Shown here piece after piece: positions 4,963 through 62,046 of a DNA stretch of 64,000 nt (position 1 is the first letter of the stretch; the number at the start of each line of letters is the position of its first letter). Source of the DNA: a virus; the UHGV virus genome UHGV-0236300; one strand, written 5' to 3'. Below the pieces are notes generated by a model. It saw only the letters and a list, made by a program, of their open reading frames with translations. It searched no databases and was not told the DNA's origin. Made by a program: the position numbers and the translations under genes.

Positions 4963-7386
4963 ATGAGCATGTGGTCGTTCGATTTTGAGGCCTCTGGCTT
5001 GCTGGAAGACCCAGATCTTTATTATCACTGCGGTTTGTTTAAAGAGCTGAATAAGAACCGTTTTATGCTGTTCCTTCCCCTAAATGACCGCACACACTAC
5101 TCTGAAGAGGATGTGGAGAAAGCTAAGAACTTCATTCTGGCAAAGAAGACCCTTTATACAGATTTTGAGGCTCGCATAGCAGATTTTTCAGAGTTGGAAG
5201 GCTGGCTTACAGGCAATTCAGACTGGTCACCTACGGCTTTGAACTGTCATAACTGCTACAGTTACGACTTTATGCTGATGGAAAGATTATCCGGTATTCA
5301 TTTTGATATGTTCCGTGATCCTAAATGCATGGGAACTATCAACGACCACCAGGTTAATCTGTTTGATACGTTAGCGATGAGTCGAATCTTGTGGCCTGAC
5401 CGCCCTTTGCCAAAAGGTTGTCCAGACGCAGTATTCAATCCAGTTACCAAGAAAATGCAGCCTGTTGGACCTCATGGTCTTATGGCATGGGGCTATGCCC
5501 TTGGTAACCAGAAAGTTCAAATCGATGACTGGCGGGAGCTTCCGCTGTGGAAGTATGTGGATCGTGTGTTCGAGGACGTTATCATTCAGGAGTTGCTCTG
5601 GAAGGAGTTGGTAGCGGAATCAAAAGGTGTATTCTACGGCAAATCTGACATGCAGAACTTTATGTACGATCCTGCCAAAGAGAAGCCGAAAGGCTTCAAG
5701 AAGATCACCTGGAAGAACGCATTACGCCGAGGCATGTTACAGCACTTCCTGATGGAGCTGCAGGCTCGACAGGGGGTGTATTTCGACATAGATGGGGCTA
5801 TTGCTTTACGTGATCGTTGCGATGCGTGGATGAAAGAGATCGCTGATCGTGTTGAACCACAGCTTCCTTTAAAAGAGTTATCAATGTCTCAGCGGCCTAA
5901 GTTCCCTGAAAAGCCGTTTAACCAGGATGGGACAATCTCCAATAATGGTTGGAAATGGTTAAAAGACAAGCTTGGCTATCCTGTGGACATGAGTGCTTTA
6001 GAATTTAAAGCCCCTCCTAAGCGAGCATTTACCTCCACAGGGGATGTAAGTAAGATGGGGATAAAATGGTGTGAAGAGATGGGCTGTAAAGACCCCGATA
6101 AGATGGCTGATTTCTTGAGGGGGTATATCAAAGGAACTTCTACACCACACCCTTTACCTAAAGAGCTGATGGATCAGGCGATAAGTGACCTACAGCAGAA
6201 GCGAATGCCTGACTGCAAGATACCCATGAAAATCAGCAATCAGGACGACATCAAGCGATACCTGATCAGTGCTGGTTGGCTCCCAACAATGTGGAGAACT
6301 AAGGATGTAACTAAGGATAGCAAGAAGAAAGCTTTACCTGATGCAGATGTTGATGCACGAGTATATGCATATATGGACGAGCTTTTGGAGTCAGAGTATT
6401 GTGACCTAATTATCAACTTCTGGAACAAAACTGATGCTAAGTTCCAGACAACTGTACATAAGTTCAGAAGCTTCCCTAACTCTGAAAGAATTAAAAAGGA
6501 AGTGTTCGGGAAAATACGTAGAAAAGCCAGAGCGCTTATTACTTCTCCGCAACTGAAAGATACGTTTGGGCACCTGTGCCCGAATCTTGAAAAATTGAAC
6601 GGAGAGATGGCTAAAGATATCGTTTTGTGGTTATCATTGCGAAACCGTAGATCGGTCCTTGATCCAATCAAGGAAGATAAGGTTGATACTGGTCTTCTTA
6701 ATCATCCACGTTTGAAGATTGACCACAAACTTCCTGCTAAAAGTTCTGGATTAACAAACACTTCCAGACAGAAACATAGTATTTGTGCAAACATGCCTAA
6801 ACCATCTCCTAAAGTGGTTATGGGTAAAGAGATGCGTAGTCTGTGGGGTGTTCCTCCGGGATACTTTGAGATCGGTATTGACGGGTCCAACTTAGAGCAG
6901 CTCATCGGGGCCTGGGGTGCCTTTGAGTTTGACAACGGTCTGTATTATGATGTTGTAAGTAACGGGGACGCGCACCAAAACAATGCTGAGGCATATACAA
7001 AAGTAGCAGGTAGAGAGGTGTCCCGTAACGATGGTAAACCTATCACGTATGGGGTTATGTATGGGGCACAAAAAGATAAAGTTGCAGATATGCTGGATAT
7101 CTCTCCCGAACTGGGGCAGAGAGTAATCGATGCTCTCTGGGATGCCAACCCAGGTCTTAAGGGGCGCAAAGAGGATCTGGAGAAATTCTGGGAAGCAACA
7201 GGTAAGAAATTTATCTACTCTTTTGACGGGCATGCTATTTGGACACGCTCTAAACACTCTTTGCTTAATGCATATCAGCAAAATGGCGGTGCATCACTGT
7301 GTGACCTAGTTGGGATACTCATGCACCACCAGATGGTGAAGCGTGGATGGTATGATGAGGGTGTTCGTCGTATTATTTATTACCAT
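4963..7386 (+). CDS. DNA polymerase, family A, exon 1 (proofreading domain, motifs A and B)
   Basis: Exo I FDFEASG; motif B RxxxKxxxYGVMYG; QQNGGASLCD segment like T7 QSAGALICK; frame hits stop at 7390-7392 just before the expected motif C. Confidence 0.85.
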
Positions 7387-8228
7387 AAATAACATTGTGG
7401 CTTCGTGCAGTGATGCACGTCGAAAACCTCTTTAATTGACGGGAAGGCTAAGTTGACTTTTACGCCTAAACATGGTAAAAGCTCAATATGCTAATCCGCA
7501 GCGAAGACTAAAGGGGTGTAGTTAAAATGGCTAGATCAGTTGATTATCACGGATATACCGTGTTTGATGATGGAACAATACCTTTATCGAAACGTGATCA
7601 TACAACAATGTTTTGTTTTGATAATGGTAGAGGTTACCTTTGCGTAACCATGCTCATCGAGGGGAAGCAGTGCACAAAAGGTGTCCACCACTTGGTTGCT
7701 GAATGCTTTGTACCGAACCCTGATCCTGAAAAGCTCACATGGGTGAACCATAAGGATGGAAATAAGTACAACAATGCATACTGGAACTTGGAATGGACTA
7801 CCCCTGGCGGAAATATCAAACACGCCTACGATAATGAACTCAGAGTAAGGCCAGTCGGTGAGTATAATGCCAACGCTGTACTGACCGAGGATGAGGTAAC
7901 GGAGATTTGTGAACTGTTGCAGAGTGGTCTACGACAATGCGAGATTAGGGATCTTGGGTATCCTTATGAGACGGTTAGGGCCATAAAGCAAAGAAGACAG
8001 TGGAAACATATCTCTAAAAACTACACCTGGTAGTAACGTTCAGAGACTATCGAAAGCATAGCTCCAACATAGTTTGGTGTGAAGAAGCGAGTAGAGTAGG
8101 CCAGCAAGTGCGGTCGAAATGAGAGGTGCCTTGGTGACAAGGCAGTGAGATAGTCCGATCCATACAGGAAACCGTATGGCTGTGCACGTAATGGTGCGGG
8201 GTAGCTTAACGACCTACCTGAACTATTG
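7387..8228 (+). mobile_element. group I self-splicing intron with HNH endonuclease ORF, interrupting the DNA polymerase gene
   Basis: Core elements P AATTGACGGGAAGG (7434-7447), Q AATCCGCAGC (7493-7502), R GTTCAGAGACTA (8038-8049), S AGATAGTCC (8148-8156); upstream exon ends in U (7386), intron ends in G (8228); candidate P1 between exon CCAU and intron GUGG (7397-7400). Confidence 0.8.
7527..8033 (+). CDS. HNH homing endonuclease (intron-encoded)
   Basis: HNH motif HHLVAEC...NHKDGNKYNNAYWNLEW; ORF sits between intron elements Q and R. Confidence 0.8.
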   Translation: MARSVDYHGYTVFDDGTIPLSKRDHTTMFCFDNGRGYLCVTMLIEGKQCTKGVHHLVAECFVPNPDPEKLTWVNHKDGNKYNNAYWNLEWTTPGGNIKHAYDNELRVRPVGEYNANAVLTEDEVTEICELLQSGLRQCEIRDLGYPYETVRAIKQRRQWKHISKNYTW

Positions 8229-10783: not shown

Positions 10784-11075
10784 AAACATCAACCCAACAG
10801 GATTCTTGAAAGTATACCGTGAACTGCTATATACTACAGAGGACAGTGTTCTAGAGTACCCAGAATACCTTTTGCTGTATAAGTATCTACAAGAAGCTGG
10901 TGAAAATCTACCAGTTAGTGCAGAAGGCGGTCCGAACTGGATATACAGCGCATGGAGAAAGGTTGACATTCTCCCAGATCCAGGAAAAGATATGGTAGTT
11001 TGGCAGCTTATCAACAACATCGGGATTCCAATCTTTGATGAAGCTGTTAAAATCTATTTTGAACTTGACGATTAA
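10773..11075 (+). CDS. hypothetical protein
   Basis: ATG 10773 after AGGAGAAG. Confidence 0.45.
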   Translation: MKTENINPTGFLKVYRELLYTTEDSVLEYPEYLLLYKYLQEAGENLPVSAEGGPNWIYSAWRKVDILPDPGKDMVVWQLINNIGIPIFDEAVKIYFELDD

Positions 11076-11092
11076 TATCAGGAGACCTTAAG

Positions 11093-11338
11093 ATGGCTGG
11101 AGTAGTTGCTCGCGCAGGACAGAAAGTACGTTGTGTTGAAGTTGGTTTCGGCGGCAAAGGTTGCCAGAACCTAACACAAGGTAAGGAATACGCTGTTATT
11201 TCTGGTGGTGGAGATAAGAGCATTGTGTTCGATGATCATATTCTGGATGCTGAAAACTTTGAAATATTTGACGATGATGGCGATCCGATCACCTGCCTGC
11301 TGAACGGAAGCTGGGGCACTTTCGAAGTAATTGGCTAA
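11093..11338 (+). CDS. hypothetical protein
   Basis: 81-aa ORF, RBS CAGGAGA. Confidence 0.5.
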   Translation: MAGVVARAGQKVRCVEVGFGGKGCQNLTQGKEYAVISGGGDKSIVFDDHILDAENFEIFDDDGDPITCLLNGSWGTFEVIG

Positions 11339-11375
11339 CAAATAGCTGTTGTAATTTACAGAAGGAGATGCTAAA

Positions 11376-11786
11376 ATGGTGTCTCCTTTATGTTGTTCAA
11401 ATAAAATCGGAGATTCCACAATGGAACAAATGAACGATCAAGCGTCGGTTGCGATGAACGAGCAAGAACAACCTCAAGAATTTTTCTTAGGGTTAAGCAA
11501 AGATCAAGTGTCTCTTCTGCTGGTACTTTCTTCTTTCATGGGGAGACTTCAGGAGCTCACACAACAACCAGAGGCTGAACAGTTATTCCAGGCTCTGCGA
11601 GAAGAAGAGAAATATCGTCGTTTGGATTATGCCTTAGGTTGGGTAGCTCAACAACGAGATATGCTAATGGCCCTTTCTGGGACGACGAGTTTTGCAATGG
11701 GCCTGTTAGCTCAAGTCCAGGACAAATTAATTCAAGCAGGGTTTGCACATACATCAACCACTAACGAAGAACAAGGAGATAAATAA
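11376..11786 (+). CDS. hypothetical protein
   Basis: 136-aa ORF, RBS GAAGGAGA. Confidence 0.5.
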   Translation: MVSPLCCSNKIGDSTMEQMNDQASVAMNEQEQPQEFFLGLSKDQVSLLLVLSSFMGRLQELTQQPEAEQLFQALREEEKYRRLDYALGWVAQQRDMLMALSGTTSFAMGLLAQVQDKLIQAGFAHTSTTNEEQGDK

Positions 11787-13012
11787 TGAGCGTTATCCAA
11801 CAATTTGCTAACCCGATGAATCCGCGTGAAACTGTTTTACTGGCTCACGGTATGATTAAACGTGTCAGCATCAAGCCCATTAAAGGTGCTGATCCTACAA
11901 CAGGTATTAAAACCACTGTGTGGCAAGGTAAGAAAATTGAATCCAGCCACACCATCTCTTTACTGATTTCTGAACTGGACTCCTCTGATAACCTGCTCCA
12001 AGGTGGTGAAGAAGTTTGGATCAGCATGGGTGATAAGCTGCTTAAGCCTGGTCATCAAGACTCCGTCTCTGTTAAAATTGATGACAAGTGGGAAACAGTA
12101 ACGCCAGGATGGATCGTAAATATCCCTTTAAAGGCAAATGAGCATAACGGTAAGACCTACTACAAAGGCTCACTGGCTAAAATGGTTAAGTTGGGGGCAG
12201 GAGAGGCTCCATCAGCTCCACAGCAACAAAAACAGCAACAAGGCACACAATCACAAGGCCAGAAGCAGAAACCTCAGCAGAATGCCAATCAGGACGTTTT
12301 ACGCATCTATGGTGATGTGACTCAGATTGTTGGTAACGTGGTTACTGTCAATGACCACAAGATTGGCGAAGGTGCTATGGTTGTCTCCGATGAGCAGCTT
12401 AAAGACCTGGTGGTTGGCGGTCGTGTTGCAGCTATTGTTGACAAAGACACCGGGAATATTATCAGCGGCTTCAAGGCCTACCCGCCTAAAGCAGAGAACG
12501 GTACACAAGGTTCTGGTGGTAAGCGTAAATCCTCTTACGACCCCATCGGTGTAGAGACAGGGCACAGTATCAATGCATTGCAGATCATCCTGGATCGCGG
12601 GTTTAAGATTGACAGCCCTTTAGATGTGGCTAAAACACTGCACGTGGTCACCATCGAGCTTAAGAAAGAGTACGCTCAAGCCACTAACCGAACTGAAGAT
12701 GAAGTAGGTGCCAGTGTTGGTAATGCGGTATTGAACGCTTGTCGCCGTATTGACAAGAAAACGAAAGTTGATGATTTTGCAGTAGCAATTACTGCAGAGG
12801 CAAAAGATGTCTTGACTAATCTTGCTGAACCGTTGTATGATTGGATCAAGAACGGTGCTGGAGCCACTGACCATCAAGAGCCTCAAGCTGCCAAACAGGA
12901 AGCCGCCCCACAGCAAAACACTGTAGACGCTCCTCCTGTAGATGATGCGGAAGACGACCCGATGGATCAGAATCCGGCACAGTACGCCTTTGATGATGAC
13001 ATACCTTTTTAA
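11786..13012 (+). CDS. putative ssDNA-binding protein with SSB-like acidic C-terminal tail
   Basis: Q-rich linker (PQQQKQQQGTQSQGQKQKPQQ) and C-terminal ...AFDDDIPF, identical to the E. coli SSB C-terminal hexapeptide; sits in the replication module. Confidence 0.5.
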   Translation: MSVIQQFANPMNPRETVLLAHGMIKRVSIKPIKGADPTTGIKTTVWQGKKIESSHTISLLISELDSSDNLLQGGEEVWISMGDKLLKPGHQDSVSVKIDDKWETVTPGWIVNIPLKANEHNGKTYYKGSLAKMVKLGAGEAPSAPQQQKQQQGTQSQGQKQKPQQNANQDVLRIYGDVTQIVGNVVTVNDHKIGEGAMVVSDEQLKDLVVGGRVAAIVDKDTGNIISGFKAYPPKAENGTQGSGGKRKSSYDPIGVETGHSINALQIILDRGFKIDSPLDVAKTLHVVTIELKKEYAQATNRTEDEVGASVGNAVLNACRRIDKKTKVDDFAVAITAEAKDVLTNLAEPLYDWIKNGAGATDHQEPQAAKQEAAPQQNTVDAPPVDDAEDDPMDQNPAQYAFDDDIPF

Positions 13013-13028
13013 CATCTAGTTAACATAG

Positions 13029-13056
13029 CCCTACCCGAAAGGGTGGGGCATTTTTG
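13029..13056 (+). terminator. rho-independent terminator
   Basis: Stem CCCTACCC/GGGTGGGG, GAAA loop, then CATTTTTG. Confidence 0.6.
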
Positions 13057-13074
13057 TATAGAGAGGACTGAAAA

Positions 13075-13491
13075 ATGACATTAGAAGATATCATTGTTAA
13101 ACCTGAGAACTATGACCAATACAATCTATCAACCCAATCTGTGGACCTTGGATGCGCCACTGTCAGTGCGTGGCTGGTTAACGGAAAAGAGTTGGATAAA
13201 TGCTTAGAAGCTCACATGACTGTGAACAAGTTCCTTGATGAAAATACTCACTGGCTGGAAGGTGCAGGTGTATACGCTTCGTGGCTAGAGAGTATGGGAT
13301 TTGACTACCAATCTGAAGAGGGGTGGTGGAGCTATCTGGCTATCTGTCCAGAGACATTGCAATGCTTCATGAAATATTCTGAAGATTTGGAGTACCGGGC
13401 GGTGGTTGACAGTGCTATTGCTCGTTATAGCCGTAAACCTTTTTCCCACGACATTAAAACTGTGGAAGAATTTGTTGAAGTTTTCTGTTGA
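13075..13491 (+). CDS. hypothetical protein
   Basis: 138-aa ORF, RBS GAGAGGA. Confidence 0.5.
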   Translation: MTLEDIIVKPENYDQYNLSTQSVDLGCATVSAWLVNGKELDKCLEAHMTVNKFLDENTHWLEGAGVYASWLESMGFDYQSEEGWWSYLAICPETLQCFMKYSEDLEYRAVVDSAIARYSRKPFSHDIKTVEEFVEVFC

Positions 13492-13587
13492 CACAGGTTG
13501 TAAGGTGTGCAATTATAACCTTGTAGAGCTGGAGGATGTGATGAACGAAGAAAACTGGGATGTGTAACTAACAGGAGGCCACTGCCC

Positions 13588-13785
13588 ATGATTTATCGAA
13601 TCCGTGTGAGAGAAGATGCACCAGGTTGTTACTTTGACTGGCGTGGGTGGTGGTTTCTCCACCCAATGGATGGACTCACAGATAGAATGCTGGATGCTGC
13701 CCTTTACACAGATACCGACATAGAGTATAATCTTTACTTGAAAGATGGTATCGATAACGGCCTGTTTGAAGCAATTCCTGCGTAA
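13588..13785 (+). CDS. hypothetical protein
   Basis: 65-aa ORF, RBS CAGGAGG. Confidence 0.45.
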   Translation: MIYRIRVREDAPGCYFDWRGWWFLHPMDGLTDRMLDAALYTDTDIEYNLYLKDGIDNGLFEAIPA

Positions 13786-13850
13786 GAGAATGTGATCGCC
13801 ATGTTTTATGATCTTCCTGTAGCACCACCTATTGATCCTGGAGAACTACG

Positions 13851-14276
13851 ATGATTTATGAAATGCCAAAACTGATTCGTGACGATGCACGAAACGCCCA
13901 CACCTTTATTATGGGCAAGCGCATGGATATTATTTGTCACAAAGACTTCTGGGAAGGGAGCTACTTCACAGAATATTTTGGAAAAATGGATGATGGCCTA
14001 CTGATCCAGTTTTACACCGATGCGGAAAACAACATTAGTTGGGAGTTCGAGACCGAAGATATCCATAAACTTTTCACCTTCCTTGGTATTAAGATTAAGG
14101 CCAAGTTTGAAGAGGGAGAGTGCGACGATTGTGGATTTTATGAGGTAACAGATTTCTATCTTCCGAGCGGTAAAAACCTTTACTATGAAAGCCACTTCGG
14201 TAACTCCAATATGCCACAGTGCTGGACTGAGTTTTTTGAAATTGTGGAAGAGGAGCTGGAATATCGTGATTATTGA
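13851..14276 (+). CDS. hypothetical protein
   Basis: 141-aa ORF, RBS CTGGAGA. Confidence 0.5.
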   Translation: MIYEMPKLIRDDARNAHTFIMGKRMDIICHKDFWEGSYFTEYFGKMDDGLLIQFYTDAENNISWEFETEDIHKLFTFLGIKIKAKFEEGECDDCGFYEVTDFYLPSGKNLYYESHFGNSNMPQCWTEFFEIVEEELEYRDY

Positions 14277-14724
14277 TACTGTAGAGGGAGATTTAATCTC
14301 CCTTTTTAAGAGCGGTGCTGGTCACCTGATCCACGGTTGTAACTGCTTCCACACAATGGGTAAGGGTGTAGCAAAACAGATTGCCCGTGAGTTCCCTCAA
14401 GCATTGGAAGCTGATAAAATGACTATGCACGGTTGCCTAAGTAAACTGGGCGCGTTCTCCCGCTGGGAGCACTTATCTCCGAGAGGTATTGTCTACGGAA
14501 TAAATCTGTATACTCAGTTCTACCCAGGGCCTAATGCTGAATATTTCTCAATACTGAAAGGATTTGAGCGAGTCAATGAAGTATTTGAGGGGTCGATTTT
14601 ACCATTCTACATCCCTAAGATCGGGTGCGGCATAGGCGGTTTGAAGTGGGAACATGTAGAGGACATTATTAACCTTGCCACTTTTGATATAGATATTATC
14701 GTGGTGGAGTACAAAGAGTGTTGA
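14266..14724 (+). CDS. macro-domain protein (ADP-ribose binding/hydrolase family)
   Basis: LIHGCNCFHTMGKGVAKQIAREF resembles the macro-domain Gly-rich ADP-ribose site; IPKIGCGIGGL resembles the second macro motif; GTG start 14266 after AGGAG, overlapping upstream stop. Confidence 0.6.
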   Translation: MIIDTVEGDLISLFKSGAGHLIHGCNCFHTMGKGVAKQIAREFPQALEADKMTMHGCLSKLGAFSRWEHLSPRGIVYGINLYTQFYPGPNAEYFSILKGFERVNEVFEGSILPFYIPKIGCGIGGLKWEHVEDIINLATFDIDIIVVEYKEC

Positions 14725-14749
14725 CAGCTATATTTTAAGGTGGTATAGT
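14721..14749 (+). promoter_or_regulatory. sigma70-like promoter
   Basis: TTGACA, 17-nt spacer, TATAGT. Confidence 0.55.
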
Positions 14750-14778
14750 CACCACAACGATTAAGACAGGGGAGCACT

Positions 14779-14973
14779 ATGGAGACTAAAATCTTAATTC
14801 TAGCTGTGATAGATACAACAGAAGGAGCCATGTTTGAATCTGCAGGAGGGTATTTCTACCTGCCCTACGGAAAAAGAACTTCCGAGCCGAGTAAAGATTC
14901 AATCCTCAAAGTGTTCCCGTGTGCTTTCTGGCTGGAGATTCTGGTAGAAGATTGCAGAGGCTTGGGGAGATAA
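14779..14973 (+). CDS. hypothetical protein
   Basis: 64-aa ORF, RBS AGGGGAG. Confidence 0.45.
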   Translation: METKILILAVIDTTEGAMFESAGGYFYLPYGKRTSEPSKDSILKVFPCAFWLEILVEDCRGLGR

Positions 14974-14975
14974 TT

Positions 14976-15170
14976 ATGAGAAACAAGAAAGAGCTTTACT
15001 CTGGCGAGTGGATAAACGATCAACAGGTAGGAGAGGTAACCTGCTTCCGTTGCTTTACTCGGTACAATCTTAAAACTGCACCAAAAAGTGTTCCAAAGAC
15101 TGACGGTTATTACATAAAAGAACCTCATTGCCCGAAGTGTAAATGCCGAGTATACTGGAGTAACCTGTAA
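14976..15170 (+). CDS. hypothetical zinc-ribbon protein
   Basis: ATG after GGGGAGA; CFRCF...CPKCKC cysteine pairs. Confidence 0.5.
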   Translation: MRNKKELYSGEWINDQQVGEVTCFRCFTRYNLKTAPKSVPKTDGYYIKEPHCPKCKCRVYWSNL

Positions 15171-15174
15171 AAGG

Positions 15175-15202
15175 TTGACATCTGAAAACTGCGGTATATA
15201 AT
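15175..15202 (+). promoter_or_regulatory. sigma70-like promoter
   Basis: TTGACA, 16-nt spacer, TATAAT. Confidence 0.55.
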
Positions 15203-15233
15203 ATAAACATAAACTAGCAGAGAGGGATAAATT

Positions 15234-15425
15234 ATGGTAATTTTTAATCGAGACGGTATCATAGTTAGACAGCACCCATTCCTTGAATACTATCAGGTTG
15301 AGCAATGGTGTTACGGTGATTGCAGTCATTCCTATGGGCAAAGTTGGGGATATCGCACAGTTTTTGAATCAACAGATCTTGATAAAGTAAAACAGAAAGT
15401 CTTAGAACTTCTTAACAACAAGTGA
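15234..15425 (+). CDS. hypothetical protein
   Basis: 63-aa ORF, RBS GAGAGGGA. Confidence 0.5.
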   Translation: MVIFNRDGIIVRQHPFLEYYQVEQWCYGDCSHSYGQSWGYRTVFESTDLDKVKQKVLELLNNK

Positions 15426-15435
15426 GTATTATACT

Positions 15436-15768
15436 ATGGTAACATTAGAAAGACGTAAAGCTATCGCCGCCACACTGGCAGACATCTTTTGGGATTGCAA
15501 TTTAAAAGATACCCGATATTGCGGCGCATCTGTAGATGTATTATTCCCACGGCCCACCATTGTTGCAATGGGTAGCCTGCTGGGTGTAGTTGCAGGTGCA
15601 TGGGATAAGGAAGGTGGTTTCTATATCTGGCAGCCTGACTACGGGACCTGGAAAGAAGTAAGGGGTGCTGATGACTTTGGGCCTGCAGTTGCTAAGATGG
15701 ATGGCTGGGAAATTTATGTTGGAAACGACATGAAGCTGAAAGGTGAGATTGTTTACTGGTTACCTTAA
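15436..15768 (+). CDS. hypothetical protein
   Basis: 110-aa ORF in co-oriented array. Confidence 0.45.
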   Translation: MVTLERRKAIAATLADIFWDCNLKDTRYCGASVDVLFPRPTIVAMGSLLGVVAGAWDKEGGFYIWQPDYGTWKEVRGADDFGPAVAKMDGWEIYVGNDMKLKGEIVYWLP

Positions 15769-15788
15769 TAAAACGCAGGAGATAAAGT

Positions 15789-16034
15789 ATGAACAAAGGG
15801 TGGACATTTGTAGACGGCGTTAAAAACATGCCTCTAGGAAAGTATATTGTAGCCATGGCAGATGAGAATGGCAAGGTGGATTTCGGAGTTTGCGAGATTG
15901 TTCTTGCAGGATCTGGTGACTATGCCCACAAAACTGGGATAATTAACGGTCATTTCTACTTTGATTACAACCCTGTTGTGGCGTATATGGCTATGCCAGA
16001 GTTAGAGCTCCCAAAGGAGGGTGCAGATGTTTAA
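15789..16034 (+). CDS. hypothetical protein
   Basis: 81-aa ORF, RBS CAGGAGA. Confidence 0.5.
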   Translation: MNKGWTFVDGVKNMPLGKYIVAMADENGKVDFGVCEIVLAGSGDYAHKTGIINGHFYFDYNPVVAYMAMPELELPKEGADV

Positions 16035-16224
16035 GCTTAAATCTGCATGGAACATTGCTGTGGGTGATGAGATCCGCATCCCTGGTGGGAAGACCGTTAT
16101 GAAGATATCTCGTATTGAATACGAAGGCGACCGTGTATTCCACATCTTTGCAGAAGATGGTCGGGAAATTTATGTACAAGCGGGCTCTCACATCTATATC
16201 CGTAAGAAAGGGGATGACAAATGA
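16027..16224 (+). CDS. hypothetical protein
   Basis: ATG 16027 after AAGGAGGG. Confidence 0.45.
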   Translation: MFKLKSAWNIAVGDEIRIPGGKTVMKISRIEYEGDRVFHIFAEDGREIYVQAGSHIYIRKKGDDK

Positions 16225-16550
16225 CAGAGATCATTATTTCAACTGCAGGGTATGTATTCCTGACAATCATTGCTCTGACCATTTTGGTGGCGGTATATGG
16301 ATTTGTTATTCTACCTATTCTTGAGACAATTAGTTTGTGTCGGTGTTGGAGAAAGGCTTACGGTCCACAGCCGTGGAGGGACTGGCCCCACCTGGTTCGC
16401 ATAGCGTTCTCTTATGCTTATGATCACGCCAGCAGTGCATGCATAACCGGGTATCACGCTCACAATTGGAACTGGGAGGGGTTGGGTAGATGGAATGTTA
16501 TAAAGACCATACCTCTACGTATGCACAAGCCTAAAAACAAAGACAGTTGA
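16221..16550 (+). CDS. hypothetical membrane protein
   Basis: ATGA-coupled; N-terminal hydrophobic helix YVFLTIIALTILVAVYGFVILPIL. Confidence 0.5.
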   Translation: MTEIIISTAGYVFLTIIALTILVAVYGFVILPILETISLCRCWRKAYGPQPWRDWPHLVRIAFSYAYDHASSACITGYHAHNWNWEGLGRWNVIKTIPLRMHKPKNKDS

Positions 16551-16599
16551 TACTTGAAAATCCCTGGCACATCAAGTATAAGGAGGATTTCTAAAATGG

Positions 16600-17050
16600 A
16601 CTTCCTCCTTTTGATATTTTACCTGGCCGGATATTTTAAAATTCTTAGAAAATCAGAAAATGGATCGAAAACTAAAATGGATTTTTCAAGACAGGCGCGA
16701 TAAGATGTGCTGCTCATTCTATCGTTCGCACCGTACTTTAAGTTACTATTCCAGATTTTCCGCACATACTCTCACCCTTCTACCAGAACTTTCCCAGCTT
16801 ACCTTTGACCCTTTATAACAATAAACCCATTATTCTCAGTAGGTTTTGATACATCTCTCTCAGTACTCGATCTGTTTTTCGTTTCAAAGATTGAATTTTC
16901 TGAAAATTTTTCTCGATAAATTTCTTAGTACTCGATCTGTTTTTCGTTTTCTGAATCAGATTTTCTGGAAATCGTTCCGGAGCTCGACCTGAAATTTTTG
17001 GGGACGAAATCGATTTTTCGTTTTCGGAAATGGATTTTTAAAATTTGTAT
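16600..17050. repeat. AT-rich non-coding region with short direct repeats
   Basis: AGTACTCGATCTGTTTTTCGTTT at 16861 and 16929; AAAATGGAT repeats near 16650; TTTTTCGTTTTC motifs. Confidence 0.5.
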
Positions 17051-17157
17051 ATGGAAATACTTAAGGAGGTATTATTTTATATAGAATTGTCACGGTAGGT
17101 AATTAGCATGCTAACTAAATTTATGAAATGCGAAAAGTTCTCATTTAGAATTTTGAA

Positions 17158-17350
17158 TGATAATCATTCTCGTTTGCAGAATAACGGGCACCCCCGGTGA
17201 TTGTCTCCCGGCCCCTGTTGCCCCGGCTTGTTATTATAGTATCACACAGGACAAAGAAAGCAAGGATTTTTTGCATAAATTTTTAAATGATAATGATAAC
17301 CGTTCTCATTTTATGCAGCGCCCATCCCCGGTGGTTGTCTCCCCCGTCAC
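17158..17350. repeat. duplicated ~65-nt element (two diverged copies)
   Basis: Both copies contain AATGATAAT...TTCTC...GCAG...CCCCGGTG.TTGTCTCCC; downstream CCTGGCGGGGCC repeats at 17389 and 17449. Confidence 0.5.
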
Positions 17351-17773
17351 CGGTGCCTGCCGTCCTTTCGATAGGTATATTGTGCCACCTGGCGGGGCCG
17401 CTGTCAACACTTTTCAAAAAAATTCTAACCTGATGCGCTAACCGTTGCAACCTGGCGGGGCCAGCCTGGCAGGGCTATGCTATAGGGTAGGCAACAACTG
17501 AAGAGGAGGTACAAAAATAAAAGGTAATATGATCCCTGGAAATGTAGCGATTAATGACGCTGAGGCTATCGCCCTGGTTGAAAAGGCTATGGCGGGAGCG
17601 TTGGAACATAAAGAAGAGTACGAAAAAATGATGGTTAACCTGGCAGGGGCGGCGGCTGGAGAATTCTGCCCAAAAAATAATTCTAACTAATGGTTGACAG
17701 CTCGGATAGTTCTGTTATTCTTATCCTCGCAAGGTGAACAACACCACACTAATTAACAGAGAGGATAAAAATC

Positions 17774-17971
17774 ATGAACGCCTACGGAATTAAAGTACGT
17801 CGCAACACTCGCCAGGCCGTCACCGATCAAATGATTTGCCAGGTGGACGTAACCATCAACAACGGGCAAGGCCTTTATAAATTCCGTCGCGGTCAGAGCT
17901 ACACCCGGCAACAGCTTAATCGTTGCGCCCTGACAAAAGGCCAGATCAACCACTGGTTTAATAAAAAATAA
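17774..17971 (+). CDS. hypothetical early protein
   Basis: 65-aa ORF, RBS GAGAGGA. Confidence 0.5.
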   Translation: MNAYGIKVRRNTRQAVTDQMICQVDVTINNGQGLYKFRRGQSYTRQQLNRCALTKGQINHWFNKK

Positions 17972-17974
17972 GTA

Positions 17975-18003
17975 TTGACATACAGTCTGACACCAAATAC
18001 ACT
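17975..18003 (+). promoter_or_regulatory. sigma70-like promoter
   Basis: TTGACA, 17-nt spacer, TACACT. Confidence 0.5.
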
Positions 18004-22188: not shown

Positions 22189-22608
22189 ATGAACATTAAA
22201 TCTGATAATCCGGCATATAGCTTTGATAACGCTTTTTGTCACGGTCCGGCGGCGAAAGGATTCGAAATCGATGGTAAACTAATTATTGTCAATGTTGACG
22301 GGGAAGAGGTTGCAGTATATCCGGTGGCAGACGTTAAAAGCCGTCTACAATGCCGCATAGATGTTACCGCCTATCAGCTTGATCCGGTCCGGGTAGTTGC
22401 CCTGGTCCTGGAAGAAGAAATTAAAGCAATGCACCACAGCAACAAGTTTATTGGTGACGCTCAAGATAATATGCAGGTATGCCGCTATAAAGTTAATGAA
22501 GTGCTTAAAGAGTACGGCTATAAGGATTTAATGATCAAGCGCGATGAAAAATTCCGCTACCGTAACGACCTGGCAAATCGGATTTTTGAAATATACGAAT
22601 CATTATAA
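22189..22608 (+). CDS. hypothetical early protein
   Basis: 139-aa ORF, RBS TAAGAGGT. Confidence 0.55.
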   Translation: MNIKSDNPAYSFDNAFCHGPAAKGFEIDGKLIIVNVDGEEVAVYPVADVKSRLQCRIDVTAYQLDPVRVVALVLEEEIKAMHHSNKFIGDAQDNMQVCRYKVNEVLKEYGYKDLMIKRDEKFRYRNDLANRIFEIYESL

Positions 22609-22626
22609 TTTCTTAACTGAATTATC

Positions 22627-22652
22627 AAGGGGCTTAAAGGCCCCTTTCTTTT
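22627..22652 (+). terminator. rho-independent terminator
   Basis: Stem GGGGC/GCCCC with TAAA loop, then TTTCTTTTT. Confidence 0.6.
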
Positions 22653-23263
22653 TGTCTGCTCTTCTCCTACCATAAACGGCCCTACCTGGCAAGTGGAATA
22701 ATTGACTAGCCATCAATCCCACATACTGTACAAATATACATGGAAAATAACTATTGCATAATCTTTCATTGTGTGGTAGCAGGGCCATTTTTACCCGTTT
22801 TCTCTCCCAAAAGTGCACGTAATGCCGCTATTGCACAAATTTTAACCTGATGCACATCTCCAATATCTTGTCAACAACTAAAAATCTTTATAAGTCATAC
22901 ACTTACACAGCATCGAAAGCGTGTTCTACGCGAAAAATCGAGTATAACTATAGCCGCCAGATCTCAGAATTCACGTACGCACGCCATTCTATAGTCTGCA
23001 AAGTATTTATTCCAACCACAGAATAACGGAATAGTCAATACCTGCATAAAATAATTATTCGTGTAAACTGCATAACATAAATCAGCTCAGGTGTCAACAT
23101 TTTTCGTAAACAGTTCGAAATTGTCACGATAAGTTATTATACACAGAGAAATCTTTAGTCGTCTAATGTTTACTGTACATTACTATACTGACTGGAATCA
23201 TTAGATGACTAAGAGAAAGATAAGAAATAATTAATAATGTAATTGTTTTACCTGTAACAATAA

Positions 23264-23440
23264 GGCAACTATGCAAACGAATGGCATGGCGCGACGGAGT
23301 CGCGACATAATATAAAAGCAGTAACAATCACCCCCGTGATAGTTTTTCTGCAATCTATTATTCAGATCATAGTTGCCTTGTATTTAGTTAATCATGACAT
23401 AACAAGCAAGGCAACTATAGATCTTCTAATAGTTGCCCTG
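23264..23440. repeat. CATAGTTGCC direct and inverted repeats
   Basis: Motif at 23264 (rev), 23368 (fwd), 23410 (rev), 23429 (fwd); 23368-23420 is a 13-bp-arm imperfect palindrome. Confidence 0.5.
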
Positions 23441-23529
23441 CTTTTATATTATGTCATAGATTGTTATCTTGTTAATTGTTTTCATGCAAACGAATGTCAT
23501 GGCTTATCATCTCTGTGTAAACAATTTGG

Positions 23530-23585
23530 GCGTAAACTATTCAGATGAAAACTATTCAGGCGTAAACAGTCTATGCGTAAACAGT
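23530..23585. repeat. CGTAAAC(AG) motif cluster
   Basis: GCGTAAAC at 23530, 23560, 23575; also 23897 and 23105; the same core occurs in the early 5'UTR 22-mer. Confidence 0.5.
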
Positions 23586-23610
23586 GAGATATGGAATAGT
23601 AACAGCCGTT

Positions 23611-23682
23611 ATTGTGTCATATTGTGTCATTGTGTCAAAGGTAAAAGTGTCAAAAGTGACAATTTTGTCACATTGTGTCAGA
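23611..23682. repeat. TGTGTCA / TGACA iteron-like repeats
   Basis: ATTGTGTCAT x2, TGTGTCAAA, GTGTCAAAAGTGACAA, TTGTCACATTGTGTCAGAC. Confidence 0.5.
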
Positions 23683-24204
23683 CAAGTTTTTCTCCTCTTT
23701 GTCAAGTGCCGCATGAAAAATTTACAAACTGGTATGGTAGCATTTTTGCGGCCCTGTTTACATTCAGGAATGTATGTATAATCCTTGCTGTGTGGGCGTT
23801 TAGACGTCTGGACGGTCAGAAGTCAGCAGGTCAATATCTAATCTATTGGTTGCTAACTATATCCCACACAAATAGTAAGAAATATAATTGTTATGTGCGT
23901 AAACAGTAACTCATGTTATCAATCCCTGTATGTATCGCCAGTGGTGCGCATAATGGGTATTATGTTAAATTGCCCGTAATGATAACCATTCTCACAATGA
24001 TAGGTATTCTCATTCATCCCCACAAGATAGATTGCAAATGTTGTGCCACTGTGTGAACGGCCTCACCTATTAATTTGCCTCACTGCCTCGATATTTGAGA
24101 ATTATTATAAAAAATGAGAAGTATTCCCATTCCGTCCGCCTGGCAGCACTCCTGTAGGACAAGCACAACATCGGGGTATAACTGGACCTGTTCAGATATT
24201 TCTG

Positions 24205-24345
24205 GCTGACTCTTCAGGCCTGTGTGGGAAAAGCCAACCTCTCCGGCGGCGGGGAGGGGGGTCAATTAAAAAATTTACGTGGTGTATGAAGCGCTCTTCA
24301 GGCAAGGTGTGTATTATGGGATGAAACCCTCTTCAGGTGATGATA
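24205..24345. repeat. CTCTTCAGG repeats and G-rich repeats
   Basis: CTCTTCAGG at about 24211, 24296, 24330 (and 24739); CCGGCGGGGA(G/T)GGGG at 24244 and 24388. Confidence 0.4.
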
Positions 24346-59925: not shown

Positions 59926-59939
59926 TAAAAGGCCTCCGC

Positions 59940-60701: not shown

Positions 60702-60709
60702 AAGTGTCC

Positions 60710-61060
60710 TCAGTAGATGTTTTGTTTAATCTCTATTCCAAACTTTTTAAACGAGTCAGCAGCAAGCATGAATTTACGAGCCGCTGATGGGTTAGAAGTA
60801 TGCACGAAAATCTTCACGTTGTCAACTACAGGAGGCTTACCAAATACAAATTTTTCCTCCAGCATAGATAGGCAATCGTACCCTTCAAATACCTCTCCAA
60901 GGTCGTTGTCCATGTGCCACTCAGAAACGCGCCTGTAGAGCTTTCTCTTATCGTTAATAAAATCCATAAACTCAGAGGAATTCTTTAGCCAAATAGCATC
61001 TGGGAGCCCATAATTTGACGGATCTCTCAAGTCATCCAGCCACACAATCAACTTCTTCAT
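60710..61060 (-). CDS. hypothetical protein upstream of the sirtuin gene
   Basis: 116-aa ORF, RBS GAGGA; N-terminus MKKLIVWLDD. Confidence 0.5.
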   Translation of the reverse strand: MKKLIVWLDDLRDPSNYGLPDAIWLKNSSEFMDFINDKRKLYRRVSEWHMDNDLGEVFEGYDCLSMLEEKFVFGKPPVVDNVKIFVHTSNPSAARKFMLAADSFKKFGIEIKQNIY

Positions 61061-61992: not shown

Positions 61993-62046
61993 TTTGTCCC
62001 TTTATCCTGCCACACAAATAACTTGGTGTCAACACTTGAAATTAAC

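What the first reader, a model, noticed from the sequence alone, without database searches (positions are those of the whole stretch)
14266..14724. Macro-domain protein in the early region, a possible partner of the distant sirtuin
The ORF has macro-domain-like glycine-rich motifs and sits in a promoter-driven early cassette. Macro domains bind or hydrolyse ADP-ribose and O-acetyl-ADP-ribose, the sirtuin product; Sir2/macro pairs occur in bacteria. Here the two genes are about 45 kb apart on opposite strands, so any functional link is inference. Start is assigned to GTG 14266.
Basis: partly seen in the sequence, partly recalled or inferred. Interest (0 to 1): 0.6.

Follow-up and report, generated by a model that had tools for sequence, protein, structure and literature searches.

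The report
Phage macrodomain, likely anti-DarT2 enzyme
This is a real, already annotated macro-domain gene of an rV5-like E. coli phage; it is an ortholog of phage T4 Tk.4 and most likely strips defensive ADP-ribose marks off phage DNA, not a partner of the distant sirtuin.

Summary
ORF 14266-14724 (+), 152 aa with a GTG start, is identical to the annotated 'macro domain protein' of Escherichia phage vB_EcoM-ECP26, a Vequintavirus. Pfam Macro passes its cut-off. The AlphaFold model (pLDDT 96) matches TARG1, DarG and Poa1p. dN/dS against a relative is 0.11.

It is a full-length ortholog of T4 Tk.4 (41% identity; 70% to RB49 Tk.4). A 2025 preprint named Tk.4 AdfM because T4 needs it to grow on hosts carrying DarTG2. 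The active site keeps Asn26 (DarG Asn22). It has an invariant Gln84 where DarG and TARG1 have the catalytic lysine. Streptomyces SCO6735, a proven thymidine-ADP-ribose DNA hydrolase, has the same signature.

Best explanation (confidence about 0.6, inferred and not tested in this phage): an orphan, antitoxin-like hydrolase that removes DarT2 ADP-ribose from phage single-stranded DNA.

The sirtuin partnership is not supported. The Sir2 gene (59940-60701, -) sits in its own RNA-repair cluster. T5-like phages carry that Sir2 without this macro, and T4-like phages carry the macro without Sir2. A weak version survives: the macro could dephosphorylate ADP-ribose-1''-phosphate made by that pathway.

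This is a known kind of gene, of low to moderate interest.

The parts
14266..14724 (+). Macro-domain gene (152 aa plus stop), GTG start. Tk.4/AdfM family (PHROG 335), Gln-type member of the ALC1-like (TARG1/DarG/SCO6735) class.
14250..14255 (+). Shine-Dalgarno-like GAGGAG, 10 nt upstream of GTG 14266, inside the 3' end of the upstream ORF.
   Evidence: Read directly. rV5_ev147 has the same GAGGAG before its GTG.
13851..14276 (+). Upstream 141-aa ORF (PHROG 8157, function unknown). Its last 11 nt overlap the macro start, so the two are probably co-transcribed and translationally coupled.
   Evidence: Only three full-length close homologues plus one partial fragment were found. The AF2 model is unusable, pLDDT 44.
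13703..13731 (+). Sigma-70-like promoter (TTTACA-17-TATAAT, 11/12), the candidate promoter of the 13851-14724 two-gene unit.
   Evidence: This is a consensus match only; no transcript data.
14721..14749 (+). Sigma-70-like promoter (TTGACA-17-TATAGT with TG, 11/12). It overlaps the macro stop codon and serves the next small ORF (14779-14973), so it marks the 3' limit of the macro unit.
   Evidence: sequence.
14332..14343 (+). Codons His23-Gly24-Cys25-Asn26. Asn26 aligns with DarG Asn22 and SCO6735 Asn27. His23 aligns with SCO6735 His24 and Poa1p His23.
   Evidence: Alignments; residue roles from PMC9411070. In 247 aligned family members His is present in 240 and Asn in 245.
14356..14373 (+). 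Codons 31-MGKGVA-36, the first glycine-rich ADP-ribose-binding loop (the GxG motif of macro domains).
   Evidence: motif definition in PMC9503650.
14503..14517 (+). Codons 80-NLYTQ-84. Gln84 occupies the column of the catalytic Lys80 of DarG and Lys84 of TARG1. The SCO6735 authors place their Gln85 at that same position.
   Evidence: alignments. Gln is present in 243 of 243 non-gap family members. SCO6735 Q85A is inactive (PMC9411070).
14614..14640 (+). Codons 117-PKIGCGIGG-125, the second glycine-rich (phosphate-binding) loop. TARG1 Asp125 corresponds to Gly124 here.

Best explanation
The gene encodes a stand-alone ADP-ribosyl hydrolase of the Tk.4/AdfM family, an orphan, antitoxin-like counter-defence enzyme.

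Proposed mechanism:
1. It is transcribed from a host-type promoter together with the overlapping upstream ORF.
2. The protein binds ADP-ribose through its two glycine-rich loops.
3. With Asn26 and Gln84 positioning the distal ribose, it hydrolyses the N-glycosidic bond between ADP-ribose and thymidine that host DarT2 toxins place on single-stranded phage DNA.
4. This releases free ADP-ribose and restores a replicable template.

Shown here: the gene, its start codon, the fold, the class, orthology to T4 Tk.4, and the conserved active-site signature.

Taken from the literature: T4 needs tk.4 on DarTG2 hosts, and the Gln-type enzyme SCO6735 cleaves thymidine-ADP-ribose on DNA.

Inferred: that this Vequintavirus protein has the same substrate and role.
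For: 1. **Orthology.** Pairwise identity to T4 Tk.4 is 41% over 150 of 152 residues, E 7e-43. Identity to RB49 Tk.4 is 70%, and that gene sits in the T4 vs-tk.4-tk locus. It is the only macro gene in the window.
2. **T4 phenotype.** tk.4 was the single significant hit when a T4 transposon library was grown on DarTG2. A clean knockout sensitised T4, and the gene is otherwise non-essential (preprint 10.1101/2025.11.20.689424).
3. **Fold and class.**
   - Best PDB sequence hit is the M. tuberculosis DarG macrodomain.
   - Foldseek top hits are TARG1, T. aquaticus and M. tuberculosis DarG, and Poa1p.
   - The only PADLOC hit is DarG (E 2e-14) and the only NCBIfam hit is antitoxin_DarG (E 2e-12). 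Both cover only DarG's N-terminal macro part.
4. **Active site.** His23-x-x-Asn26 and Gln84 have the same spacing as SCO6735 His24, Asn27 and Gln85. In SCO6735, N27S and Q85A abolish thymidine-ADPr DNA hydrolysis, and the protein rescues cells from DarT (PMC9411070). Gln84 is invariant in 243 of 243 non-gap family members.
5. **Domain fusions.** The three longest of the top 150 family representatives are Macro+NADAR fusions. NADAR is the other known anti-DarT hydrolase type (PMC11825919).
6. **Precedent.** PhiKZ AdfM, a stand-alone phage macrodomain, removes DarT2 marks in vitro and protects the phage (PMC13309987).
7. **Context.** The gene lies 1.2 kb downstream of the primase-helicase, DNA polymerase and SSB-tailed protein block, in a promoter-rich block of small ORFs.
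8. **Selection.** dN/dS is 0.11.
Against: - Nothing has been tested in any Vequintavirus. A literature search for DarTG2 together with Vequintavirinae found no data on the matter.
- The T4 evidence is a preprint and is genetic only. No Gln-type phage macrodomain has been assayed on DNA.
- Identity to T4 Tk.4 is only 41%.
- DarG's catalytic Lys is replaced by Gln, so DarG chemistry cannot simply be transferred.
- The protein lacks DarG's C-terminal DarT-binding domain.
- The equivalence of Gln84 with SCO6735 Gln85 rests on transitivity through DarG and TARG1 alignments plus matching residue spacing. I could not display a direct alignment.
- Iyer et al. 2022 argue from gene context that phage ADPr-processing domains more often act on soluble ADP-ribose derivatives (abstract).
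- Poa1p-like features (His23, Thr30 in the Ser30 column) are also conserved.
Confidence: 0.6

Rival explanations
1. The macro acts as a metabolite-level partner of the sirtuin, a refined form of the first reader's idea. The V5-type Sir2 would act like KptA/Tpt1 and transfer ADP-ribose from NAD+ to an RNA 2'-phosphate during tRNA repair. cREC would open the resulting ADP-ribose 1''-2'' cyclic phosphate. This macro would then act as a Poa1p-type ADP-ribose-1''-phosphate phosphatase, or as an O-acetyl-ADP-ribose deacetylase, to clear the by-product.
For: - Sir2, cREC, Rnl1-like ligase, kinase, MazG and phosphoesterase are all present in the window, and Iyer et al. predict a KptA-like role for this Sir2 clade.
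- The macro resembles Poa1p in sequence (N-terminal IHSCNC versus IHGCNC, E 1e-5) and in fold (E 4e-9).
- His23 and Thr30 fall in the columns of Poa1p His23 and Ser30, the residues mutated in PDB entries 6lfs and 6lft.
- Database labels read 'phosphatase', 'A1pp motif' and 'Poa1p_like'.
- V5-like phages carry both genes. Proteus phage Mydo, which Iyer et al. name as a second prototype of this sirtuin neighbourhood, also carries the macro.
Against: - The genes are 45 kb apart on opposite strands, in different gene blocks.
- Eps7 and, by sampling, other T5-like phages have the Sir2 without the macro.
- T4-like phages have the macro without Sir2.
- The T4 phenotype is specific to DarTG2.
- Iyer et al. 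explicitly note that no Macro is coupled to this sirtuin clade, and they assign by-product processing to cREC, 2H, Nudix and phosphoesterases.
- The 'phosphatase' label derives from an old motif annotation, not from an assay.
Confidence: 0.12
2. The macro is a broad-spectrum eraser of ADP-ribose on proteins or RNA. It would reverse modifications made by other host ADP-ribosyltransferase defences or toxins, for example ARTs that target RNA phosphate ends or proteins. DarT2-modified DNA would be only one substrate, or not the relevant one in this phage.
For: - TARG1, the top structural match, acts on Glu/Asp-linked protein ADP-ribose and on ADP-ribosylated RNA and DNA phosphate ends.
- SCO6735 also removes ADP-ribose from auto-modified PARP1.
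- Macro domains are generally versatile.
- The family is very large: 1081 clusters at 50% identity with E <= 1e-30. It is present in 2810 phage records, which may be more widespread than a single defence system would explain.
Against: - In the results of PMC11833690, SCO6735, the only assayed Gln-type relative, was inactive on 5'-phosphate ADP-ribosylated RNA and DNA and on 2'-OH RNA ADP-ribosylation. The discussion of the same paper, however, describes it as active on RNA phosphate ends.
- The T4 library screen gave tk.4 as a hit only with DarTG2 among the systems tested.
- Fusion partners are NADAR, which acts on DNA and RNA bases, not protein-directed domains.
Confidence: 0.15
3. The macro is a non-catalytic ADP-ribose binder, or a stoichiometric inhibitor that neutralises DarT or another NAD+-using effector by binding rather than by hydrolysis.
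For: - It lacks the Lys (DarG, TARG1) and the Asp (TARG1) used for catalysis.
- Catalytically dead SCO6735 Q85A still inhibits DarT by interaction.
- ICP1 AdfB counters DarT by binding.
Against: - The Asn26, Gln84 and Gly-loop signature required for SCO6735 catalysis is invariant across the family. That pattern is what is expected of an enzyme.
- The protein has no DarG-like C-terminal DarT-binding domain.
Confidence: 0.05

Closest known systems
Phage T4 Tk.4 (named AdfM in preprint 10.1101/2025.11.20.689424); PHROG 335
   Same: - Full-length ortholog: 41% identity, E 7e-43.
- Same length, about 152-155 aa.
- Same HGCNCFHTMG, NLYTQ and IGxGIG motifs.
- Stand-alone gene overlapping its upstream neighbour, in a block of small non-essential genes.
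- The RB49 ortholog is 70% identical.
   Different: - Different genomic neighbourhood: no vs, tk or regB here.
- GTG instead of ATG start.
- No experimental data for the Vequintavirus protein.
- The T4 work is genetic, and the substrate is inferred there too.
PhiKZ gp104 AdfM (chimallivirus DarG2-like macrodomain; PMC13309987)
   Same: A stand-alone phage macrodomain that counters DarTG2 by removing thymidine-linked ADP-ribose from DNA. It has the conserved Asn (N23) in the first loop.
   Different: - PhiKZ AdfM keeps the DarG-type catalytic Lys (K78); the window protein has Gln84.
- PhiKZ AdfM is imported into a phage nucleus. rV5-like phages are not among the nucleus-forming chimalliviruses; this rests on my own knowledge.
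- The two proteins were not compared directly here.
DarG antitoxin macrodomain (T. aquaticus 5m31/5m3e, M. tuberculosis 5m3i)
   Same: - Best PDB sequence hit, and among the top fold hits.
- The only PADLOC and NCBIfam hit.
- Asn22 equivalent and both glycine loops are conserved.
   Different: - No C-terminal DarT-binding domain.
- No adjacent darT.
- Lys80 is replaced by Gln.
- 47 bits against an equivalog cut-off of 250.
Streptomyces coelicolor SCO6735 (5e3b; PMC9411070)
   Same: - A stand-alone ALC1-like macrodomain with Gln in the catalytic-Lys column and the same His-x-x-Asn spacing.
- Proven thymidine-ADPr ssDNA hydrolase that protects against DarT.
- PDB sequence hit E 9e-15 with the family profile.
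   Different: - Cellular and DNA-damage-induced, not viral.
- It has a mobile loop five residues longer, carrying Lys89 and Lys94, and Val25 where this protein has Gly24.
- Weaker fold match than TARG1 or DarG (E 2.5e-6).
Human TARG1/OARD1 (4j5r, 4j5s)
   Same: Top structural neighbour, TM 0.78-0.85, with the same PxIGCG loop.
   Different: The TARG1 catalytic dyad Lys84/Asp125 corresponds to Gln84/Gly124 here. TARG1 is eukaryotic and acts mainly on protein Glu/Asp-linked ADP-ribose.
Yeast Poa1p ADP-ribose-1''-phosphate phosphatase (6lfq-6lfu)
   Same: Very similar N-terminal motif (IHSCNC versus IHGCNC), with His23 and residue 30 in matching columns. Fold E 4e-9. It is the source of the 'phosphatase' label.
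   Different: Larger protein (about 177 aa) with insertions. Single-sequence similarity is confined to the two loops. TM is only 0.65-0.73 and rmsd 4.3-4.9 A.
Sirtuin-Macro operons (SirTM-type cellular systems; Streptomyces phage Moab pair in PMC9503650)
   Same: The genome contains both a sirtuin and a macro domain.
   Different: In those systems the two genes are adjacent and co-transcribed. Here they are 45.2 kb apart on opposite strands, and the sirtuin belongs to the RNA-repair clade that lacks a coupled Macro.

Membership tests
Macro domain superfamily (Pfam PF01661) | Profile score above the curated gathering threshold over the whole domain. | tested here: met
   32 bits against a cut-off of 22, profile positions 1-118 of 118.
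Macro domain superfamily (Pfam PF01661) | Three-layer alpha/beta macro fold with a GxG loop after the second strand. | tested here: met
   AF2 pLDDT 95.9. 161 PDB macro-domain chains match at E <= 0.001. MGKGVA loop present.
ALC1-like class (TARG1 / DarG / SCO6735 / Poa1p) | Closest sequence and structure neighbours belong to this class and not to the MacroD, PARG or viral Mac1 classes. | tested here: met
   The top 19 Foldseek hits are TARG1, DarG, Poa1p and BT1257. Coronavirus and alphavirus macros score 3-4 orders of magnitude worse. Profile-versus-PDB ranking is the same.
T4 Tk.4 / AdfM family (PHROG 335) | Full-length homology to Tk.4 and to the PHROG profile. | tested here: met
   PHROG 335 E 1e-60. 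T4 Tk.4 41% identity over residues 1-150. RB49 Tk.4 70%.
T4 Tk.4 / AdfM family (PHROG 335) | Family signature H-G-x-N, D50, N-x-Y-T-Q, P-x-I-G-x-G-x-[GA]-G. | tested here: met
   All positions are present in the window protein. Each is conserved in 95% or more of 247 aligned members, and Gln84 in 243 of 243 non-gap members.
T4 Tk.4 / AdfM family (PHROG 335) | Required for phage growth on DarTG2-expressing hosts. | not testable with these tools
   Shown only for T4. No Vequintavirus data found.
DarG antitoxin (NCBIfam NF048014, PADLOC PDLC02990) | Whole-protein score above the equivalog cut-off. | tested here: not met
   47.1 bits against a cut-off of 250.
DarG antitoxin (NCBIfam NF048014, PADLOC PDLC02990) | C-terminal DarT-binding domain following the macrodomain. 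| tested here: not met
   The 152-aa protein covers only model positions 3-143 of 338 and 4-141 of 329.
DarG antitoxin (NCBIfam NF048014, PADLOC PDLC02990) | Catalytic Lys80. | tested here: not met
   Gln84 aligns with that Lys.
DarG antitoxin (NCBIfam NF048014, PADLOC PDLC02990) | Adjacent darT toxin gene. | tested here: not met
   The neighbours are small phage ORFs of unknown function, with no Pfam hit for the three scanned and only function-unknown PHROG families. No conserved toxin-like neighbour was found in 76 bacterial loci of the family either; that clustering covered only neighbour groups shared by six or more loci and used no DarT model.
SCO6735-type Gln macrodomain hydrolase | Gln in the catalytic-Lys column, held by the conserved Asn, with His-x-x-Asn spacing. 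| tested here: inconclusive
   Gln84 and Asn26 align with DarG Lys80 and Asn22. The paper equates those with SCO6735 Gln85 and Asn27. A direct alignment to 5e3b could not be displayed.
SCO6735-type Gln macrodomain hydrolase | Hydrolysis of thymidine-linked ADP-ribose on ssDNA. | not testable with these tools
   Needs a biochemical assay.
Sirtuin-Macro two-gene system (SirTM type; phage Moab type) | Sirtuin and Macro genes adjacent in one operon. | tested here: not met
   Macro at 14266-14724 (+); Sir2 at 59940-60701 (-). Sir2's neighbours are MazG-like, cREC and RNA ligase genes.
Sirtuin-Macro two-gene system (SirTM type; phage Moab type) | Co-inheritance of the two genes across genomes. | tested here: not met
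   Eps7 has Sir2 but no macro. T4-like phages dominate the macro hits and are absent from the Sir2 sample.
Poa1p-type ADP-ribose-1''-phosphate phosphatase | His23 and Ser30 equivalents. | tested here: inconclusive
   His23 is conserved (240 of 247). The Ser30 column is Thr here and variable in the family: T 148, V 21, A 17 and others.
Poa1p-type ADP-ribose-1''-phosphate phosphatase | Phosphatase activity on ADP-ribose-1''-phosphate. | not testable with these tools
   Needs a biochemical assay.

The most novel reading that the evidence does not exclude
The macro is the missing last enzyme of the V5-type sirtuin RNA-repair pathway. Sir2 would act as a KptA-like 2'-phosphotransferase. cREC would open ADP-ribose 1''-2'' cyclic phosphate. 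This Gln-type, Poa1p-like macro would then dephosphorylate ADP-ribose-1''-phosphate. One small enzyme would in that case serve both RNA-repair by-product clearance and anti-DarT2 DNA repair, linking two NAD+-dependent conflict systems in one phage.
Probability: 0.1. Interest if true: 0.55.

Novelty: new member of a known kind. Interest (0 to 1): 0.25.

Why it matters
If the inference holds, rV5-like phages carry a ready-made counter to DarTG2. These phages are used against pathogenic E. coli O157, O121 and O177. That bears on host-range prediction and on the choice of therapeutic phages.

The result also places the whole Tk.4 family with SCO6735 as a Gln-type branch of DNA ADP-ribose erasers, distinct from the Lys-type DarG and PhiKZ AdfM. 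The family is present in 2810 phage records and forms more than 1000 protein clusters at 50% identity. It often carries the label 'phosphatase', which rests on a motif annotation and not on an assay.

For the scan itself, the main value is corrective. The attractive sirtuin-macro pairing is not what the evidence supports. The sirtuin belongs to a separate, already described RNA-repair module.

Tried and rejected
1. **Upstream overlapping 141-aa ORF (13851-14276) as a possible partner or DarT-binding module.** Only three full-length close homologues plus one partial fragment exist in 5.8 billion proteins. It has no Pfam hit and only a function-unknown PHROG. The AF2 model has pLDDT 44. Nothing can be said about it.
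2. **Direct alignment to SCO6735 (5e3b).** I queried the PDB with the C-terminal two thirds of the protein, but 5e3b stayed below the five alignments that are shown. The Gln84 = Gln85 equivalence therefore rests on the DarG and TARG1 alignments plus the paper's statement.
3. **A NADAR (AdfN-like) gene in the window.** I used the NADAR parts of three fusion proteins. tblastn gave nothing below E 0.5 and phmmer gave nothing. Sensitivity was low, so absence is not proven.
4. **Whether cellular members of the family are cognate antitoxins next to darT.**
   - 76 bacterial loci, mostly Rhodobacteraceae, show a stand-alone gene. Twelve lie directly downstream of rpoC.
   - Among neighbour clusters shared by six or more loci, none was toxin-like.
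   - The scan pattern was narrow and no DarT model was applied.
5. **ICP1 AdfB as a macro precedent.** Rejected: it acts by binding DarT and is not described as a macrodomain.
6. **The CmdTAC paper as a source for a T4 macro role.** It mentions macrodomains only in its reference list.
7. **The ATG-14185 long form of the ORF.** Rejected on homologue N-termini and on the in-frame stop upstream of the RB49 start.
8. **ECP26 coordinates as a map for the whole window.** They fail beyond the first block. The window is mosaic and is about 4 kb shorter than ECP26 between the macro and Sir2 regions.
Full report
**What the window is.** The stretch 13000-16000 is 99.9% identical to Escherichia phage vB_EcoM-ECP26 (MK883717; Vequintavirus, the rV5-like myoviruses). 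About 150 relatives match it at 80-99%. The window is mosaic. The region 50-64 kb is closest to ECP32 and others at about 98%, and ECP26 is not among its five best matches.

**The observation.**
- In ECP26 the CDS QDB73627.1 'macro domain protein' maps exactly to window 14266-14724, and the nucleotide sequence is identical.
- The ORF list shows a longer in-frame version from ATG 14185 (179 aa). The homologues argue against it.
  - Every relative begins MII/MIV at the position of GTG 14266.
  - RB49 and T4 tk.4 have ATG at exactly that codon, in nearly the same DNA context.
  - RB49 has an in-frame TGA 15 nt upstream of its ATG.
  - rV5_ev147 also uses GTG, preceded by the same GAGGAG.
- GTG 14266 lies 11 nt inside the upstream ORF 13851-14276, with GAGGAG at 14250-14255. 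This is a typical translationally coupled pair.
- Against the 79%-identical rV5_ev147 ortholog, dS is 1.25 and dN 0.14, a ratio of 0.11. The protein is under purifying selection.

**Is it a macro domain?** Yes.
- Pfam Macro passes its gathering score over the complete profile.
- An AlphaFold2 model built on 48 homologues has pLDDT 95.9.
- Foldseek against the PDB returns 161 matches at E <= 0.001. The leaders are TARG1 (2e-10, TM up to 0.85), T. aquaticus and M. tuberculosis DarG, Poa1p and BT1257. Coronavirus and alphavirus macrodomains fall far behind.
- Sequence and profile searches of the PDB give the same ranking.

**Which macro domain?**
- PHROG 335 (labelled 'phosphatase') matches at 1e-60.
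- tblastn against 50,697 phage genomes finds the family in 2810 records. These include the T4-like phages, where the hit is gene tk.4.
  - T4 Tk.4 is 41% identical over the full length, pairwise E 7e-43.
  - RB49 Tk.4 is 70% identical and sits in the T4-type vs-tk.4-tk locus. Such high identity between unrelated phage families points to horizontal exchange.
- The window holds only this one macro gene.
- A profile search of 1.84 billion representatives gives 1081 clusters at E <= 1e-30.
- In 247 aligned members the signature H23-G24-x-N26, D50, N80-x-Y82-T83-Q84 and P117-x-I-G-x-G is nearly invariant. Gln84 is present in 243 of 243 non-gap members.

**What is known about this family.**
- The HIDEN-SEQ preprint (10.1101/2025.11.20.689424) reports that tk.4 was the single significant hit when a T4 transposon library was grown on DarTG2.
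- A clean tk.4 knockout sensitised T4. The authors named the gene adfM and proposed removal of ADP-ribose from DNA.
- In their tables tk.4 is otherwise non-essential, with 45 of 46 TA sites hit.
- They also made a library of the Vequintavirus Bas54, but they report no DarTG2 challenge of it.
- Independently, the PhiKZ macrodomain gp104, also named AdfM, was shown biochemically to remove DarT2 marks from a thymidine-ADP-ribosylated oligonucleotide and to protect the phage. That enzyme keeps DarG's Asn and Lys, as N23 and K78 (PMC13309987).

**Active site.**
- In the HMMER alignments, Asn26 pairs with DarG Asn22.
- Gln84 pairs with the catalytic Lys of M. tuberculosis DarG and with Lys84 of TARG1.
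- TARG1 Asp125 corresponds to Gly124.
- This protein therefore cannot use the Lys chemistry of DarG or TARG1.
- The S. coelicolor enzyme SCO6735 has the same substitution. The authors state that its Gln85 is 'equivalent' to DarG Lys80 and TARG1 Lys84.
  - Q85A, Q85E and N27S abolish or nearly abolish activity.
  - The enzyme cleaves thymidine-linked ADP-ribose from ssDNA, rescues E. coli from DarT, and protects Streptomyces (PMC9411070).
- The residue spacing matches throughout: SCO6735 His24, Asn27 and Gln85 against His23, Asn26 and Gln84 here.
- I could not display a direct alignment to 5e3b, so this equivalence is by transitivity.

- The only hit of the protein in PADLOC is DarG (2e-14). 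The only hit in NCBIfam is antitoxin_DarG (2e-12, 47 bits against a cut-off of 250).
- Both hits cover just the N-terminal macro half of those roughly 330-residue models.
- The protein is thus DarG-like but not a DarG. It has no DarT-binding domain, no adjacent toxin and no Lys80.
- Among the top 150 family representatives, the three longest (378, 472 and 570 aa) are all Macro+NADAR fusions. NADAR is the hydrolase type of DarG1 and of the phage anti-DarT1 factor AdfN (PMC11825919). A fusion of the two known anti-DarT hydrolase types is what a DNA de-ADP-ribosylation role would predict.
- In bacterial genomes the family is rare. A narrow motif scan found 77 loci in 185,579 species, mostly Rhodobacteraceae.
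  - The gene stands alone there, often directly downstream of rpoC.
  - No neighbour cluster shared by six or more loci was toxin-like. This resembles the orphan SCO6735.

**Context in the window.**
- On the same strand upstream lie a DNA methyltransferase, a primase-helicase (2826-4904), a DNA polymerase (4963-7392), an HNH endonuclease, and a 408-aa protein ending in the SSB-like tail FDDDIPF (11786-13012). A terminator-like hairpin follows at 13028-13049.
- A run of small ORFs of unknown function then begins. Sigma-70-like promoter matches occur there at twice the shuffled expectation (28 against 13.1 +/- 3.3).
  - 13703-13731 lies before the 13851-14724 pair.
  - 14721-14749 lies directly after it.
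  - A perfect consensus sits at 15175-15202.
Early timing is inference only.

**The sirtuin.**
- ORF 59940-60701 (-) is a bona fide Sir2, with Pfam E 1.3e-26 and the GAGxSxxSGIPxFR motif.
- Its neighbours are:
  - a MazG-like pyrophosphohydrolase (59212-59925; PHROG 671),
  - a cREC 'cyclic-phosphate processing receiver' domain protein (60710-61060),
  - a T4 Rnl1-like RNA ligase (61057-61992),
  - and, divergently, an AAA_33 kinase and a calcineurin-like phosphoesterase.
- Iyer et al. 2022 describe exactly this neighbourhood, with 'Escherichia phage V5' as prototype. They predict that the sirtuin acts like KptA in clearing RNA 2'-phosphates. [quoted passage not shown]
- The phyletic patterns differ.
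  - Sir2 homologues occur in 1023 phage records, dominated by T5-like phages, V5-like phages and their 140-150 kb relatives, and some jumbo phages. No T4-like record appears in the evenly spaced sample of 40.
  - T4-like phages make up about half of the evenly spaced macro sample.
  - I assembled the complete T5-like genome Eps7. It has the Sir2 at 60% identity but no macro by tblastn (best E 0.88) or by the family HMM (no hit at E <= 10).

**What remains of the sirtuin idea.**
- If the V5 Sir2 really produces ADP-ribose 1''-2'' cyclic phosphate and cREC opens it, the product is ADP-ribose-1''-phosphate. That is the substrate of Poa1p.
- Poa1p shares the IH(S/G)CNC motif and the His23 column with this protein.
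- This metabolite-level link is possible and untested. I give it about 0.1.
- Against it stand the decoupled distributions and the DarTG2-specific T4 phenotype.

**Conclusion.**
- The finding is a correctly delimited and correctly classified gene. It is already annotated in GenBank, and a function has recently been proposed for its family.
- The most likely mechanism is reversal of DarT2 thymidine ADP-ribosylation by a Gln-type, SCO6735-like active site (confidence about 0.6).
- The chain of evidence is orthology, plus conserved catalytic signature, plus domain fusions, plus literature. There is no direct test for any Vequintavirus.
- I class it as a new member of a known kind. Interest is low to moderate.

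Noticed in passing
window 59212-63065: Complete 'phage V5-type' sirtuin RNA-repair neighbourhood. It comprises a MazG-like pyrophosphohydrolase (59212-59925, -), Sir2 (59940-60701, -), cREC (60710-61060, -) and a T4 Rnl1-like RNA ligase (61057-61992, -). Divergently there are an AAA_33 kinase (about 62090-62503, +) and a calcineurin-like phosphoesterase (62406-63065, +). It matches the description in Iyer et al. 2022; the proposed KptA-like role of the sirtuin is still untested.
   Followed up: partly
window 11786-13012 (+), hairpin 13028-13049: A 408-aa protein of unknown function (PHROG 4477) has a Gln-rich linker and a C-terminus ...AFDDDIPF. That C-terminus is the same acidic tip as E. coli SSB (resemblance from my own knowledge). 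The gene lies just after the primase-helicase and DNA polymerase genes and is followed by a terminator-like hairpin. It could recruit host SSB-interacting proteins.
   Followed up: no
window about 22600-25100, especially 23000-23700: This stretch corresponds to a roughly 2.5 kb gene-free gap in the ECP26 annotation, where the + strand and - strand gene blocks meet. Positions 23000-23500 are 32% GC. The stretch carries five CGTAAAC(A) repeats (23105, 23530, 23561, 23576 and a variant at 23516) and ATAGTTGCC inverted repeats, and has no Rfam match. It looks like an origin or iteron region. The HIDEN-SEQ preprint reports that the equivalent region of Bas54 tolerated no transposon insertions.
   Followed up: partly
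P0176, P0238, P0239 (family members found): Tk.4-type macro domains fused to NADAR domains; in P0176 also to DUF4326. These are single polypeptides combining the two known anti-DarT hydrolase types. Their genomic origin was not examined.
   Followed up: partly
L003 (RB49) 2501-2956 versus window 14266-14724: The Vequintavirus macro is 70% identical to Tk.4 of the T4-like Krischvirus RB49 but only 41% identical to T4 Tk.4. Within Vequintavirus there are two allele groups, about 91-100% and about 79% identical, with dS 1.25 between them. This suggests horizontal exchange or allele replacement of this gene between phage families.
   Followed up: partly
L009-L085 (bacterial loci), e.g. L023: Cellular members of the family are concentrated in Rhodobacteraceae (Ruegeria, Roseovarius, Shimia). 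In 12 loci the gene lies directly downstream of rpoC, with rpsL about 2 kb further on. This is a housekeeping position, not a defence island.
   Followed up: partly
BFVD hit A0A481YV05: The best viral structural match (TM 0.93, 40% identity) is a Marseillevirus protein named 'SNF2 subfamily protein'. Another hit is a Marseillevirus 'uracil-DNA glycosylase'. These names suggest giant-virus proteins that join this macro type to DNA-repair or remodelling domains, as in ALC1. Their domain architectures were not checked.
   Followed up: no
window 59212-59925 versus ECP26 record 85199-85912 (L005 1-313): In the ECP26 GenBank record, the CDS labelled 'Sir2-like protein' (714 nt) maps to the MazG-like ORF of the window and not to the Sir2 ORF. 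This looks like a shifted product label in that record. In Eps7 the Sir2 gene is annotated as two CDSs, and tblastn shows two frames, which suggests a frameshift or sequencing error.
   Followed up: partly
window 11000-18000: Sigma-70-like promoter matches are twice as frequent as in shuffled sequence (28 against 13.1 +/- 3.3). Near-consensus sites precede most of the small + strand ORFs, at 13488, 13703, 14721 and 15175. Terminator-like sites are not enriched (6 against 6.0).
   Followed up: no
window 1-64000: ARAGORN found no tRNA or tmRNA gene anywhere in the window.
   Followed up: yes
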